From Escherichia coli (GTDB lineage: Bacteria; Pseudomonadota; Gammaproteobacteria; Enterobacterales; Enterobacteriaceae), in assembly GCF_024223415.1 (NCBI RefSeq), contig NZ_CP100500.1: a stretch of DNA of 64,000 nucleotides; one strand, written 5' to 3'. A program made the position numbers. Within the stretch, counting starts at the first letter, position 1. Each line of letters begins with the position of its first letter. Below, piece by piece: positions 58,301 through 64,000 of this stretch.

Positions 58301-61300
58301 TCTATGGCGCGCCAGAAACGTTCCTTATTGACGGCAACGGCATCATTCGCTATCGCCATGCGGGCGATCTGAATCCTCGCGTCTGGGAAGAAGAGATCAA
58401 GCCGCTGTGGGAGAAATACAGTAAGGAGGCCGCACAATGAGGTTTTTATTGGGCGTGCTGATGCTGATGATCTCCGGCTCAGCGCTGGCGACCATCGACG
58501 TGTTGCAGTTTAAAGATGAAGCACAGGAACAACAGTTCCGTCAGCTCACTGAAGAACTGCGCTGCCCGAAATGTCAGAATAACAGCATTGCCGATTCCAA
58601 CTCGATGATTGCCACCGACCTGCGCCAGAAAGTGTATGAACTGATGCAGGAAGGCAAAAGTAAGAAAGAGATTGTCGATTATATGGTGGCGCGTTACGGC
58701 AACTTCGTCACTTACGATCCGCCGTTAACGCCGCTGACCGTGCTGCTGTGGGTGCTTCCGGTAGTGGCTATTGGTATTGGCGGTTGGGTCATTTACGCCC
58801 GCTCGCGGCGTCGGGTACGCGTGGTACCGGAAGCGTTTCCTGAACAAAGCGTGCCGGAAGGTAAGCGTGCCGGATATGTTGTTTATCTGCCGGGTATTTT
58901 AGTGGCGTTAATTGTAGCTGGCGTCAGCTACTACCAGACTGGCAATTATCAGCAGGTGAAAATCTGGCAGCAGGCCACGGCACAGGCTCCGGCGTTGCTG
59001 GACAGGGCGCTGGATCCGAAAGCCGATCCGCTCAACGAAGAAGAGATGTCGCGCCTTGCGCTGGGGATGCGTACTCAACTGCAAAAAAATCCGGGAGATA
59101 TAGAAGGCTGGATTATGTTGGGCCGCGTTGGCATGGCGCTGGGTAACGCCAGTATCGCCACCGATGCATACGCTACTGCGTATCGCCTCGATCCGAAAAA
59201 CAGCGATGCCGCACTGGGTTATGCTGAAGCGTTGACACGTTCATCTGATCCCAACGACAACCGCCTCGGCGGCGAACTGCTGCGCCAGTTGGTGAGAAGC
59301 GACCACAGCAATATCCGTGTGTTAAGCATGTATGCGTTTAATGCCTTTGAGCAGCAGCGATTTGGCGAAGCCGTTGCCGCGTGGGAGATGATGTTGAAAC
59401 TCTTACCTGCCAACGATACTCGCCGTGCGGTGATTGAACGTAGTATCGCGCAGGCGATGCAACATTTGTCGCCGCAGGAGAGTAAATAAAAAGAGGCCCG
59501 ATGGTGATGCCATCGGGCTATTTTTATTGTGCCCCGCGTTGTTGCAGGAACAGAATGGTGGCTGCCACGCGTGAGCGGACATTGAGTTTGCGCAGCAGAT
59601 TGCGAATATGTACTTTTACTGTCTGCTCGGAAATATTCAACACCGAGGCAATCTGTTTATTTGACAGCCCCTGTGCCAGCTCGTGCAGAACATCCAGCTC
59701 GCGCTCCGTCAGCACGCTGAAGGGATCTTCTTCCGCGCCAAACATTTCACGTTCATGTAAGTACTGATTGACGCGTTCGCTAAAGACTTTGCTGCCTTTC
59801 GCTCCGGCACGAATCGCTTCCAGCAACACTTCCGGGTCGCTGTCTTTCAACAGATAACCGTCTGCGCCTGCGTCTATCAGCGCAAAGACATCGCTGGAGG
59901 CATCTGATACGGTCAGGATAATAATTTGCGCGGTAACGCCATCCCTGCGCAAGGCATTGAGGGTATCCAGGCCACTCATACCTTTCATATTGAGATCCAG
60001 CAAGATCACGTCGATATCCAGTCTATTCGCCAGATCGATCGCGCTCGCGCCGTCGCCTGCTTCGGCGACCACTTCAAAGCCACGATCAAGCTCCAGTAAC
60101 TGACGAACACCGCGTCGCATAAGTGGATGATCATCCACAATCATCACCTGAAAAGGCGTTGCTTCAGGCATAGTAGTCTCCTGAGGTTTTATTAGAATCA
60201 TTATGTTTGAGCGTAGCGTTGGTAACGCTACCAGGCGCGTGAATGTTACCCCATTTTATGTATGGACATGTAGCGAAAACTACAACCTTGTCGTTCGCTT
60301 TGGCATCATTTTCATTATAAAGACGGAATTTTGCATCAGCTTCTCATCAAGAAAAACAACTAAAAAATCAATCACAATACTTGTGCATTTCTTTAAACAG
60401 TTTTTAAAAACTGACTCCGGGTATGGAGCTATGGGTATTTTCTCTACCCAATGCTTTTAACAGCAATTAATTTCATAGGATGAAAGCTCAATGCATCAAT
60501 CTGGTTCTGTTTCTCTTTGTCGTTCCGCAATATCTGTTCTGGTGGCTACAGCGTTATATTCACCCATAGCATTGGCATCAACAGTTGAGTATGGTGAGAC
60601 AGTTGATGGTGTTGTCCTGGAAAAAGATATCCAGCTGGTTTATGGGACCGCCAATAATACGAAAATCAATCCTGGCGGAGAACAGCATATTAAAGAATTT
60701 GGTATAAGTAGTAATACTGAAATTAACGGCGGGTATCAGTACATTGAAATGAATGGCACCGCAGAATACTCAGTATTAAATGATGGTTATCAAATTGTTC
60801 AAATGGGTGGCGCGGCAAACCAGACTACGCTCAATAATGGTGTGCTACAGGTTTATGGCGCGGCGAATGATCCCACGATTAAAGGCGGGCGCTTAATTGT
60901 TGAAAAAGATGGGATTGCCGTCTTTGCCGCTATCGAAAAGGGAGGATTACTGGAGGTTAAAGACGGGGGATTAGCATTTGCGGTAGATCAGAAGGCAGGC
61001 GGTGCTATTAAAGCAACCACGCGGGTCATGGAGGTATTCGGAACAAACCGTCTCGGTCAGTTCGATATCAAGAATGGAATTGCAAACAATATGCTGTTGG
61101 AAAACGGCGGAAGTTTGCGAGTTGAAGAAAATGACTTCGCTTATAATACTACTGTAGATAGTGGCGGCTTACTGGAGGTTATGGATGGCGGGACTGCAAC
61201 TGGCGTTGATAAAAAAGCAGGCGGAAAATTAATTGTCTCAACGAATGCGCTGGAAGTGAGTGGTACAAACAGTAAAGGCCAATTTAGTATAAAAGATGGT

Positions 61301-64000
61301 GTGTCAAAAAATTATGAACTGGATGATGGTTCCGGGCTTATTGTTATGGAGGACACGCAGGCCATTGACACTATCCTTGATGAGCATGCCACTATGCAAT
61401 CGCTGGGAAAGGATACTGGGACGAGAGTGCAGGCAAATGCGGTATATGATCTCGGTCGATCAGATCAGAATGGAAGTATCACGTATTCCTCAAAAGCCAT
61501 CTCTGAAAATATGGTTATCAACAATGGCCGCGCTAACGTCTGGGCTGGCACAATGGTTAACGTGTCAGTCAGAGGGAATGATGGCATTCTTGAGGTCATG
61601 AAGCCGCAAATAAATTATGCACCCGCAATGTTGGTGGGTAAGGTAGTGGTTTCTGAGGGCGCTTCTTTTAGAACGCATGGTGCCGTGGATACCAGCAAAG
61701 CGGACGTTTCGCTCGAAAATAGCGTATGGACCATCATTGCCGATATCACTACGACGAACCAAAACACCCTCCTCAACTTAGCCAACCTTGCGATGTCTGA
61801 CGCAAATGTGATTATGATGGATGAGCCAGTGACTCGTTCATCAGTGACGGCAAGTGCGAAAAATTTCATTACGTTGACCACCAATACCCTGTCGGGAAAC
61901 GGCAATTTTTATATGCGTACCGATATGGCTAATCATCAGAGCGATCAGCTCAACGTCACCGGTCAGGCAACAGGTGATTTCAAAATATTCGTGACGGACA
62001 CCGGTGCCAGCCCGGCAGCAGGAGATAGCCTTACACTGGTAACAACGGGCGGCGGTGATGCTGCATTTACGTTGGGCAATGCCGGAGGTGTTGTTGATAT
62101 CGGTACGTATGAATATACCTTGCTGGATAATGGCAACCATAGCTGGAGTCTGGCAGAGAATCGCGCGCAAATTACCCCTTCAACCACTGATGTGCTGAAT
62201 ATGGCGGCCGCACAACCGCTGGTATTTGATGCAGAACTGGACACCGTGCGTGAGCGTCTTGGTAGCGTAAAAGGCGTTAGTTACGATACGGCGATGTGGA
62301 GTTCGGCAATTAACACCCGCAACAACGTGACCACTGATGCGGGAGCTGGTTTTGAGCAAACATTGACGGGCCTGACGCTCGGTATCGATAGCCGTTTCTC
62401 CCGTGAAGAAAGCAGCACAATTCGCGGCTTGTTCTTTGGTTACTCTCATTCTGATATTGGTTTTGATCGCGGCGGCAAAGGCAATGTCGATAGCTATACC
62501 CTGGGTGCTTATGCCGGTTGGGAGCATCAGAACGGTGCCTATGTTGATGGGGTGGTGAAAGTTGACCGTTTTGCCAACACCATCCATGGCAAGATGAGTA
62601 ATGGGGCAACAGCGTTTGGAGATTACAATAGTAACGGCGCGGGTGCTCATGTTGAGAGCGGGTTCCGTTGGGTTGACGGATTGTGGAGTGTTAGACCCTA
62701 TCTGGCCTTTACCGGCTTTACCACAGATGGTCAGGACTACACGTTATCAAACGGCATGCGCGCGGACGTGGGAAATACCCGGATATTACGCGCTGAAGCG
62801 GGAACGGCGGTAAGCTATCACATGGACCTGCAAAACGGTACGACGCTGGAACCCTGGCTGAAAGCCGCCGTGCGTCAGGAATACGCCGATTCTAACCAGG
62901 TGAAAGTTAATGACGATGGCAAATTTAATAATGATGTGGCTGGAACCAGTGGCGTTTATCAGGCTGGGATAAGGTCATCGTTTACCCCGACGTTAAGCGG
63001 TCATTTGTCAGTCAGCTATGGCAATGGCGCAGGGGTAGAATCGCCGTGGAATACCCAGGCGGGTGTGGTCTGGACGTTCTGATAACAGACAATAAACAGG
63101 CCGTGATGTGTCGCGGTCTGTTTATCGAATTAAATGCAGATATAAAAAAACCAACCTTTACGGTTGGTTTTTTTTGGGATTTTTGGTCCACGAGAGTAGT
63201 TTAATTGAGTGTGTAACCACATGATTTTAAATAATATGCTTGATTCAACTTTTAAATCGTATAACCAAACGTATAACTAAAATCATTTGCTGAAAAAGTG
63301 TACAATTTAAAGGCGAGTTTTCCCAGAGGTTTATTAAACTACGAAAATTTCGTAGTTTGTGAATATATTCCGGCCTGCTGGTTAACAGTCCTCAGATGTG
63401 AGGGATGTAGCCAGCGCAATTTTGCGCTTTGCTTTAATCTCAGTCAGTTATCGCCGTAACCGCTCCGGCTTCTTCCAGTGGTACGTAATTTTTTCTTTCT
63501 CCCGATACAGTTCAACGCGGCGATTGTAGGCCAGCATTTCCAGAACGCGGATCCGTATGTCGCGCATATCCACGCCGTTAAGCTCAATACCGTCACGGCG
63601 CATCACCTCAGCAACCACACGCGCATAATTTTCGGCGGTCACGCTGTCCGGCTGCGTGGCCTGTTCGTCAGCCTGCTGGCTGATTCCGGCAACGCGACGG
63701 ATTAATCGCAGTAGTTCGGCTTCTGTCATTGTGCCCCCATCGTTCTGATAGTCTGGTGTCGTCGGGTCCTTCCTGGAATTATGGCCCGTTACGGGGCGTC
63801 GACCTCGCGGTTTTTCGCTATTTATGAGATTTTTTGAGGGGGTGGTTGTTGTTTAATTGTTTGGTATATCTAATTGATAAGTAAGGTAAAAATAAAATAA
63901 ATACAACAACCTTACGGTGTATTTTGATGTCATTAATGTGAAAAAATTCAATGATATCAAATGGTTTTGTAAAAACATATGGTTGTTGTATCGCGTATTT

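What the first reader, a model, noticed from the sequence alone, without database searches (positions are those of the whole stretch)
60172..63082. narP–yejO intergenic region carries no IS5, and yejO is a single intact 863-aa autotransporter
In K-12 MG1655 I recall an IS5 copy (insH) between narP and yejO, with yejO annotated as a pseudogene. Here the 319-bp narP–yejO spacer (60172-60490) has no IS, and yejO is one open frame with a signal peptide and a C-terminal beta-barrel. This looks like the ancestral, possibly expressible, configuration. The spacer also holds a 19-bp palindrome gtagcgtt-ggt-aacgctac (about 60213-60231) of unknown role.
Basis: partly seen in the sequence, partly recalled or inferred. 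Interest (0 to 1): 0.35.

Follow-up and report, generated by a model that had tools for sequence, protein, structure and literature searches.

The report
Ordinary intact yejO autotransporter gene
This stretch is the normal non-laboratory E. coli version of the narP–yejO locus, with an uninterrupted adhesin-type autotransporter gene already catalogued in public genomes, and its small palindrome lies in the narP mRNA leader, so the finding is ordinary.

Summary
All the sequence facts check out. The narP–yejO spacer is 319 bp and has no IS. yejO (60491-63082) is one 863-aa ORF with AIDA, Pertactin and autotransporter β-barrel domains. The 8-bp/3-nt-loop palindrome sits at 60213-60231.

The comparison with K-12 was slightly misremembered. 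K-12's spacer is also 319 bp and IS-free, with 2 substitutions. Its IS5 sits inside yejO, at codons 22-23 of the signal peptide, flanked by a TTAT duplication. The window holds the single, unoccupied TTAT at 60554-60557.

The K-12 junction occurs in 357 of 5,426 complete E. coli genomes, and every listed example is a laboratory K-12 derivative. The IS-free state is therefore ancestral and general.

The window's YejO is identical to RefSeq WP_000554203.1 (strain NCTC9112). An intact yejO is still not universal. In a systematic sample of 40 genomes, about a third were intact. The rest carried a shared W789* nonsense allele, deletions, frameshifts or IS elements.

The palindrome is exact in all 27 E. 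coli loci examined, including K-12. It lies in the narP 5' UTR (+91..+109), 6 nt upstream of the published RprA pairing site. Citrobacter and Salmonella have a different hairpin at the same place. It is most likely a leader stem-loop, but this is unproven.

Nothing here is new, and interest is low.

The parts
59496..59518 (.). GC-rich hairpin between the convergent ccmH and narP genes; likely a bidirectional terminator
   Evidence: Perfect 8-9 bp stem. It lies between the ccmH stop (59489) and the narP stop (59524). The function is inferred.
59524..60171 (-). narP, nitrate/nitrite response regulator, 215 aa
   Evidence: ORF. PGAP annotation of the collinear loci. Identical to NCTC9112 NarP. 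Differs from the common allele WP_001113637.1 at P30R and R139H.
60172..60490 (.). 319-bp divergent narP-yejO spacer, 36.7% GC, no IS
   Evidence: Only 2 substitutions relative to K-12 (60274, 60444). At least 80% of the query 60172-60640 is collinear in 5,344 of 5,426 genomes.
60172..60321 (-). Inferred narP 5' UTR (150 nt from the distal TSS mapped in K-12)
   Evidence: PMC9262595 gives a 150-nt 5' UTR and also a 78-nt form. Coordinates were transferred by the 99.4% spacer identity to K-12. Not measured in this strain.
60213..60231 (-). Perfect palindrome GTAGCGTT-GGT-AACGCTAC. On the narP strand it is GUAGCGUU-ACC-AACGCUAC, at +91..+109 of the leader and -60..-42 from the AUG.
   Evidence: Forms the only stem shared by the MFE and centroid folds of the leader. 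Exact in 27 of 27 E. coli loci including K-12. Seven of 8 pairs are kept in E. albertii, and there is a loop-only change in an Escherichia cryptic-clade genome.
60168..60206 (-). Region equivalent to the RprA pairing site / translation initiation region of narP (-35..+4)
   Evidence: PMC9262595. Coordinates transferred from K-12. The A-rich block AAACAUAAUGAUUCUAAUAAAACCUCAGGAG is conserved across Escherichia, Citrobacter and Salmonella.
60491..63082 (+). yejO, intact 863-aa AIDA-I-type classical (type Va) autotransporter
   Evidence: Same start as PGAP's in NCTC9112.
60491..60577 (+). Predicted Sec signal peptide (aa 1-29, cleavage after ALA)
   Evidence: By inspection of the translation. No predictor was run.
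60554..60557 (+). Unoccupied TTAT: the site that is duplicated on both sides of IS5 in K-12 (codons L22-Y23 of yejO)
   Evidence: Junction alignment. The same empty context is found in 23 other E. coli loci.
61781..62155 (+). Pertactin-type region of the passenger (aa 431-555)
   Evidence: Pfam PF03212, E 4.4e-45.
62294..63013 (+). Autotransporter beta-barrel translocator domain (aa 602-841)
   Evidence: Pfam PF03797, E 5.8e-46. Matches the BrkA and Vag8 translocator structures.
62855..62857 (+). Codon W789 (TGG). It is TGA in a widespread pseudogene allele of other E. coli.
   Evidence: Nine of 40 systematically sampled genomes carry TGA here.
63148..63178 (.). Hairpin plus T-run; terminator of yejO, and on the other strand of proL in strains that keep it
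   Evidence: Retained next to proL in a yejO-less Escherichia genome. The function is inferred.
63184..63196 (-). Remnant of the 3' end of tRNA-Pro(GGG) proL; the att-type junction of an integrated element
   Evidence: Window TGGTC--CACGAGAG against K-12 TGGTCGGCACGAGAG. No tRNA in 55000-64000. Homology to K-12 ends at 63196.
63197..64000 (.). Start of a mobile element integrated at proL (outside the finding)

Best explanation
The window shows the ordinary wild-type arrangement ccmH - narP (minus strand) - 319-bp spacer - yejO (plus strand) of a non-K-12 E. coli. The nearest complete genome is NCTC9112.

yejO encodes a classical type Va, AIDA-I/Ag43-like autotransporter. It has a Sec signal peptide, a beta-helical passenger with AIDA repeats and a pertactin-type junction, and a C-terminal beta-barrel ending in ...VWTF. 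By homology, it would be exported through Sec, inserted by BAM, and would display its passenger as a surface adhesin if transcribed.

The K-12 pseudogene state is a lineage-specific IS5 insertion into codons 22-23 of this ORF. The window simply carries the unoccupied TTAT site.

The 19-bp palindrome belongs to narP rather than yejO. It is transcribed as part of the narP 5' UTR and most likely forms an 8-bp/3-nt-loop stem-loop. That stem-loop lies 6 nt upstream of the A-rich, Hfq/sRNA (RprA, SdsN137)-targeted translation initiation region.

Shown: the anatomy, domain content, IS5 position, population frequencies, conservation of the palindrome and its position in the published UTR. Inferred: secretion and adhesin function, expression, and any role of the hairpin.
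For: - **ORF and domains:**
- **Protein identity:** identical to PGAP 'autotransporter YejO' WP_000554203.1, and 97.9% identical to de-IS5'd K-12 YejO, with no indels.
- **K-12 IS5:** it is 1195 bp with GGAAGGTGCGAA... inverted ends and flanking TTAT copies, at the position matching window 60554-60557. PMC11005336 and PMC11677980 state that the IS5 is inside yejO near its start.
- **Frequency of the K-12 allele:** the junction is present in 357 of 5,426 genomes, and all 30 listed are K-12 laboratory derivatives.
- **Spacer:** K-12's differs at only 2 of 319 positions.
- **Palindrome position and folding:** it lies inside the 150-nt and 78-nt narP leaders (PMC9262595) and is predicted as a hairpin in both the MFE and centroid folds.
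- **Palindrome conservation:** it is exact in 27 of 27 E. coli loci, including strains with yejO remnants. It is also retained in an Escherichia genome that lacks yejO altogether.
- **Other genera:** Citrobacter and Salmonella carry a different, longer hairpin-capable sequence at the same position, just 5' of the conserved AAACAATAATGAT block. On the 16-sequence Citrobacter-type alignment (15 Citrobacter/Raoultella-labelled genomes and one Salmonella), 78% of cells are paired, against 25-39% in slid controls.
Against: - **Expression:** there is no expression or surface-display evidence for this strain.
- **Promoter:** no consensus sigma-70 promoter was found in the spacer.
- **K-12 transcription:** K-12 data show yejO almost silent, although that allele is IS-disrupted.
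- **Hairpin statistics:** the whole leader does not fold better than shuffles (z = -0.04).
- **Consensus structure:** RNAalifold found none across Escherichia plus Citrobacter.
- **Covariation:** the covariation measures in the Citrobacter/Salmonella hairpin are no better than column shuffles.
- **Uninformative conservation:** within E. coli the whole spacer is 97-100% conserved, so conservation of the palindrome there says little.
Confidence: 0.9

Rival explanations
1. The palindrome is a DNA operator for a dimeric transcription factor acting on the divergent narP and/or yejO promoters.
For: It has perfect dyad symmetry (8+3+8) in a divergent intergenic region. It is invariant in 27 of 27 E. 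coli loci.
Against: It lies downstream of both reported narP transcription starts and 278 bp from the yejO ATG. It has no match to the NarL/NarP 7-2-7 consensus; the only nearby hit, 60247-60262, has 3 mismatches and the window-wide count is at chance, 30 against 28.7 expected. The sequence is replaced by an unrelated hairpin-capable sequence in Citrobacter and Salmonella, while the flanking blocks stay conserved. That pattern fits a structural element better than a sequence-specific one. It is unique in the window.
Confidence: 0.12
2. The palindrome is a chance inverted repeat with no function.
For: About 6 such hairpins are expected per 64 kb, and 4% of simulated spacers have one. The leader as a whole folds no better than shuffles. 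Covariation is not significant. E. albertii has already lost the outer pair.
Against: A hairpin-capable sequence occupies the same position relative to the conserved A-rich block in Escherichia, Citrobacter and Salmonella despite sequence turnover. The window holds about 3-5 times more perfect short hairpins than chance predicts, so most such hairpins are functional elements.
Confidence: 0.3
3. yejO here is intact in sequence but functionally cryptic: silenced and on its way to decay as in most other lineages, not an expressed adhesin.
For: In the systematic sample of 40 genomes only 12 were confirmed intact. Nine carried W789*, one a frameshift, two IS5, one IS2 and about ten deletions, indicating weak or negative selection on the gene. 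The upstream region is AT-rich (36.7% GC) with no consensus promoter. yejO is near-silent in K-12 RNA-seq compendia. It is reported missing from ST131 (PMC5654935).
Against: The ORF has remained open over 2.6 kb in several divergent alleles (1.5-2.5% nucleotide divergence) and has a 67.5%-identical counterpart in E. albertii. This argues for some purifying selection.
Confidence: 0.5

Closest known systems
E. coli YejO (RefSeq WP_000554203.1; K-12 b2190 pseudogene)
   Same: Same locus (narP-yejO-proL), same length, 100% identical to the NCTC9112 protein, and 97.9% identical to K-12 YejO after removing IS5.
   Different: K-12 carries IS5 in codons 22-23. The window does not.
AIDA-I / Antigen 43 / TibA self-associating autotransporters (type Va)
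   Same: AIDA repeat, pertactin-type and beta-barrel domains are present. The best solved-structure sequence matches are Ag43 (4e-37), an AIDA-I family adhesin (2e-35), TibA (2e-26) and Vag8 (6e-36).
   Different: These matches are local, not orthology. No adhesion, aggregation or glycosylation data exist for YejO. The N-terminus is short, and Pfam returned no extended-signal-peptide domain (only AIDA, Pertactin and Autotransporter).
IS5 (IS5K / insH-8) insertion in K-12 yejO
   Same: The target locus is present and intact in the window.
   Different: The element is absent. The duplicated target is TTAT, which is not the usual YTAR (CTAA/CTAG) type (consensus from PMC11677980 and general knowledge).
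narP mRNA leader controlled by Hfq, RprA and SdsN137 (Brosse et al. 2022, PMC9262595)
   Same: The spacer is 99.4% identical to K-12's. The palindrome falls at +91..+109 of the 150-nt leader, next to the RprA pairing site at +116..+154.
   Different: A term search of the paper's main text found no 'hairpin' or 'stem-loop'. Its second RprA-dependent control maps to +1..+50, not to the hairpin.

Membership tests
Classical (type Va) autotransporter, AIDA-I type | C-terminal beta-barrel translocator domain | tested here: met
   PF03797, E 5.8e-46, aa 602-841. BrkA and Vag8 translocator matches. C-terminal ...VWTF.
Classical (type Va) autotransporter, AIDA-I type | Repetitive beta-helical passenger with an AIDA / pertactin-type region | tested here: met
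   PF16168 AIDA E 5.1e-53; PF03212 Pertactin E 4.4e-45. Ag43, TibA and pertactin matches. No 3D model was made.
Classical (type Va) autotransporter, AIDA-I type | N-terminal Sec signal peptide | tested here: inconclusive
   The sequence shows a basic residue (R11), a hydrophobic core and an ALA|S cleavage motif, but no signal-peptide predictor was available.
Classical (type Va) autotransporter, AIDA-I type | Surface display and adhesion or aggregation activity | not testable with these tools
   Needs expression and surface-labelling or aggregation assays.
YejO orthologue | Synteny narP (divergent) - yejO - proL with high identity over the full length | tested here: met
   proL itself is displaced here by an integrated element, and only its 3' remnant abuts yejO.
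K-12-type yejO::IS5 pseudogene allele | 1195-bp IS5 flanked by a duplicated TTAT at codons 22-23 | tested here: not met
   The window has a single TTAT at 60554-60557 and a continuous ORF.
Widespread yejO W789* pseudogene allele | TGA at codon 789 | tested here: not met
   The window has TGG at 62855-62857.
Intrinsic (Rho-independent) terminator (for the palindrome) | GC-rich stem followed by a U-run | tested here: not met
   The scan reported no terminator at 60213-60231. The stem is followed by GCUCAAAC on the narP strand and CAGGCGCG on the plus strand.
NarL/NarP 7-2-7 binding site (for the palindrome) | TACYYMT-NN-AKRRGTA | tested here: not met
   No match with 3 or fewer mismatches overlaps 60213-60231, and the window-wide count is at chance.
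Any curated Rfam RNA family (for the spacer) | Covariance-model match | tested here: not met
   No hit in 60172-60490 at E<=1. The only hits are sub-threshold ones at the yejO terminator.

The most novel reading that the evidence does not exclude
The Escherichia-specific 8-bp stem-loop at +91..+109 of the narP leader is a functional RNA element. On this reading it replaced a longer Citrobacter/Salmonella hairpin at the same position. It would set the accessibility or Hfq loading of the adjacent A-rich translation-initiation region, and so tune RprA/SdsN137 repression of NarP synthesis.
Probability: 0.2. Interest if true: 0.3.

Novelty: already known. Interest (0 to 1): 0.1.

Why it matters
It matters little. 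Its main use is as a correction: K-12's IS5 interrupts the yejO signal-peptide codons and not the intergenic spacer. The IS-free locus is the general E. coli state, and the protein is already in RefSeq.

Two modest by-products came out of the check:
- yejO is inactivated by at least five independent routes across E. coli, and only about a third of complete genomes keep it intact. Strains like this one are therefore the right background for testing what YejO does.
- The narP leader carries an undescribed hairpin next to its sRNA-pairing site, which could be tested cheaply in the existing narP-lacZ fusions.

Tried and rejected
- **Consensus promoter scan of 60100-60600:** no sigma-70-like site was found. 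Two weak terminator-like hairpins at 60414-60450 were not pursued.
- **Rfam scan of 59400-64000:** nothing in the spacer.
- **RNAalifold on Escherichia plus Citrobacter/Salmonella leaders:** no consensus structure, because the two hairpin types are not in register.
- **Named-structure pair count on the Citrobacter-type hairpin:** clearly better than slid controls but no better than column shuffles, so covariation is not demonstrated.
- **NarL/NarP 7-2-7 scan:** chance level.
- **Palindrome as a repeated or mobile motif:** rejected, because it is unique in the window.
- **Megablast of 63197-64000 against GenBank phages:** no match.
- **YejO against narP loci of other genera:** the 1.5-kb flank upstream of narP holds a homologue only in E. 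albertii, so no wider comparative set for yejO came from that scan.
- **Not done:** I did not run a structure prediction or the large protein-database searches. The Pfam, PDB and RefSeq evidence already settles what the protein is.
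Full report
**Observation**

The region reads as the first-stage reader described it. narP occupies 59524-60171 on the minus strand and is 215 aa. The mechanical ORF list extends it by 10 codons, but all PGAP-annotated collinear loci start at MPEATPF.

yejO occupies 60491-63082 on the plus strand. It is a single 863-aa reading frame with one terminal stop.

The spacer 60172-60490 is 319 bp, 36.7% GC, and contains no insertion sequence.

The palindrome GTAGCGTT-GGT-AACGCTAC is exactly at 60213-60231.

**What yejO is**

Pfam finds three domains:
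- AIDA repeats, E 5e-53.
- A Pertactin region, aa 431-555, E 4e-45.
- The autotransporter beta-domain, aa 602-841, E 6e-46.

The nearest solved structures by sequence are Antigen 43, an AIDA-I family adhesin, TibA, Vag8, the BrkA translocator and pertactin.

The N-terminus (MHQSGSVSLCRSAISVLVATALYSPIALA|ST) looks like a Sec signal peptide by inspection. I had no predictor to confirm it.

This is a classical type Va, AIDA-I-type autotransporter. The protein is 863/863 identical to the product PGAP calls 'autotransporter YejO' (WP_000554203.1) in strain NCTC9112. The DNA of that strain matches the window at 99.7% over 58001-63316.

**Comparison with K-12**

In a K-12 derivative (JME67, locus L001) the annotation reads: narP, then a 69-bp 5' fragment of yejO, then an IS5 transposase, then the rest of yejO, then tRNA-Pro and yejM.

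Aligning it with the window shows a 1195-bp IS5 with GGAAGGTGCGAA... inverted ends. It is inserted after nt 67 of the yejO coding sequence. TTAT is present on both sides, and the window has the single TTAT at 60554-60557, in codons L22-Y23 within the signal peptide.

K-12's narP-yejO spacer is itself 319 bp and IS-free. It differs from the window at only two positions, 60274 and 60444.

The title statement, that the intergenic region carries no IS5, is true but is not a difference from K-12.

Two papers say the same thing. [quoted passage not shown] PMC11677980 lists yejO among the genes with IS5 'inserted inside the gene', in the same orientation as the gene.

Removing IS5 and one TTAT from K-12 restores an 863-aa ORF that is 97.9% identical to the window's. 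TTAT is not a canonical YTAR IS5 target.

**How common each state is**

The K-12 yejO::IS5 junction is found in 357 of 5,426 complete E. coli genomes. All 30 best hits are laboratory K-12 derivatives such as MG1655, C600 and J53.

The spacer plus the first 150 nt of yejO is present in 5,423 genomes. The IS-free state is therefore ancestral and general.

An intact yejO is nevertheless not the majority state. I used the 40 rows that one search returned at even steps down the ranking of 5,424 genomes, and inspected the annotation and sequence of 25 of them. The other ten classified rows were assigned from their coverage and annotation, and five were not classified. The tally was:

| State | Genomes (of 40) |
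|---|---|
| Unflagged 863-aa yejO | 12 |
| Shared nonsense allele W789* (TGG to TGA at window 62855-62857, which truncates the barrel) | 9 |
| Frameshift | 1 |
| K-12 IS5 | 2 |
| IS2 | 1 |
| Small deletion | 1 |
| 52-56% remnants (the one inspected lacks window 60963-61966 and 62421-63052) | 8 |
| Almost nothing left | 1 |
| Not inspected | 5 |

That puts intact yejO at roughly 30-42% of complete genomes. Strain 135, outside the sample, has yet another frameshift. This agrees with the report that yejO is missing from ST131 (PMC5654935).

Outside E. coli, a yejO homologue (67.5% aa identity) sits next to narP in E. albertii. It is absent from the 1.5 kb upstream of narP (the flank fetched for each locus) in Citrobacter, Salmonella and more distant genera. 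An Escherichia cryptic-clade genome has yejM-proL-narP with no yejO at all.

**Expressibility**

Nothing I could run shows expression. The consensus scan found no sigma-70-like promoter in 60100-60600. The yejO promoter is described as uncharacterized (PMC11677980). In K-12, yejO is near the bottom of a 3,376-dataset RNA-seq detection ranking (PMC10392735). The recurrent inactivation across lineages fits a gene that is often dispensable or silent.

**The palindrome**

It belongs to narP's side of the spacer. With the narP AUG at 60171, it spans -60..-42.

In K-12 the narP leader is 150 nt from the distal TSS, and a 78-nt form was used in earlier work (PMC9262595). The palindrome is therefore transcribed in either case, at +91..+109 of the long leader. 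It ends 6 nt before the published RprA pairing site at +116..+154, which is -35..+4 from the start codon.

Folding the leader gives the 8-bp/3-nt-loop hairpin in both the MFE and the centroid structure. The leader as a whole is no more stable than shuffles, with z = -0.04.

The sequence is exact in all 27 E. coli loci I hold, including K-12 and the yejO-remnant strains. It also survives in the yejO-less Escherichia genome with only a loop change. E. albertii keeps 7 of the 8 pairs.

Homology between that yejO-less genome and the window covers only 60172-60281 of the spacer. So the palindrome travels with narP.

In Citrobacter and Salmonella the same position holds an unrelated, longer hairpin-capable sequence (TCAGCGCGATGAATCTGGACGATTnATGCGCTGA). 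This position is immediately 5' of the conserved block AAACAATAATGATnCTAATAAAAnCTCAGGAG.

A named-structure count on the 16 Citrobacter-type sequences (15 Citrobacter/Raoultella-labelled genomes and one Salmonella) gives 78% paired cells, against 25-39% for slid controls. Four pairs show double changes. None of the covariation measures beats column shuffles convincingly, and RNAalifold finds no joint consensus.

The palindrome is not a terminator, since no U-run follows it. It is not a NarL/NarP 7-2-7 site, not an Rfam family and not a repeated element.

By chance alone, 4% of such spacers would contain one, and about 6 would occur per 64 kb.

My best reading is a small leader stem-loop flanking the Hfq/sRNA-targeted initiation region. 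I rate this at about 0.55 probability, against chance (0.3) or a protein operator (0.12). Whatever its role, it is not a peculiarity of this window.

**Verdict**

The locus, the protein and the K-12 IS5 lesion are all already known and annotated, so interest is low.

Noticed in passing
window 63184-64000: proL (tRNA-Pro GGG), which follows yejO in K-12 and most E. coli, is missing. Only a 13-nt remnant of its 3' end remains (63184-63196), followed by foreign DNA. In strain 135, which shares this junction at 99.2%, the element encodes head-decoration and major capsid proteins, ProQ/FinO, PerC, SSB, a RepA helicase, DUF4222 and an Icd-like protein. That is a small capsid-encoding island resembling a capsid-forming phage satellite (cf-PICI-like) integrated at proL. 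NCTC9112 has a related one, about 88% identical. Only 9 of 5,426 genomes match at least 80% of 63100-64000, and there is no match in GenBank phages. The 93-aa ORF 63448-63729 (minus strand) is phrog_1561, of unknown function.
   Followed up: partly
window 62855-62857 (yejO codon 789): A single shared nonsense allele, W789* (TGG to TGA), truncates the YejO barrel in 9 of 40 systematically sampled E. coli genomes. Together with deletions, frameshifts, IS2 and IS5, this leaves yejO intact in only about a third of complete genomes.
   Followed up: partly
window 60243-60256 (narP strand), alignment A1: The motif TGGGGTAA(A/C)AT, just upstream of the leader hairpin, is almost invariant across Escherichia, Citrobacter and Salmonella. 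It looks like an extended -10 element of a proximal narP promoter, consistent with the 78-nt leader form mentioned in PMC9262595. Not tested.
   Followed up: no
window 59524-60171 (narP): NarP here carries P30R and R139H relative to the commonest E. coli allele (WP_001113637.1) and is identical to the NCTC9112 allele. Residue 30 also varies in other lineages: P, S or R.
   Followed up: no
L008 (Escherichia cryptic-clade genome NZ_JAATUR010000027.1) 1241-1500: This genome has yejM-proL-narP with no yejO. Only the narP-proximal 110 bp of the spacer (window 60172-61281 equivalent ends at 60281) and the hairpin region matching window 63136-63204 are shared. So yejO together with the yejO-proximal 210 bp of the spacer behaves as one indel unit.
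   Followed up: partly
window 60247-60262: TACCCCATTTTATGTA is a 3-mismatch match to the NarL/NarP 7-2-7 consensus within the narP leader/promoter region. The window-wide count of such matches is at chance level, so it is probably meaningless.
   Followed up: no
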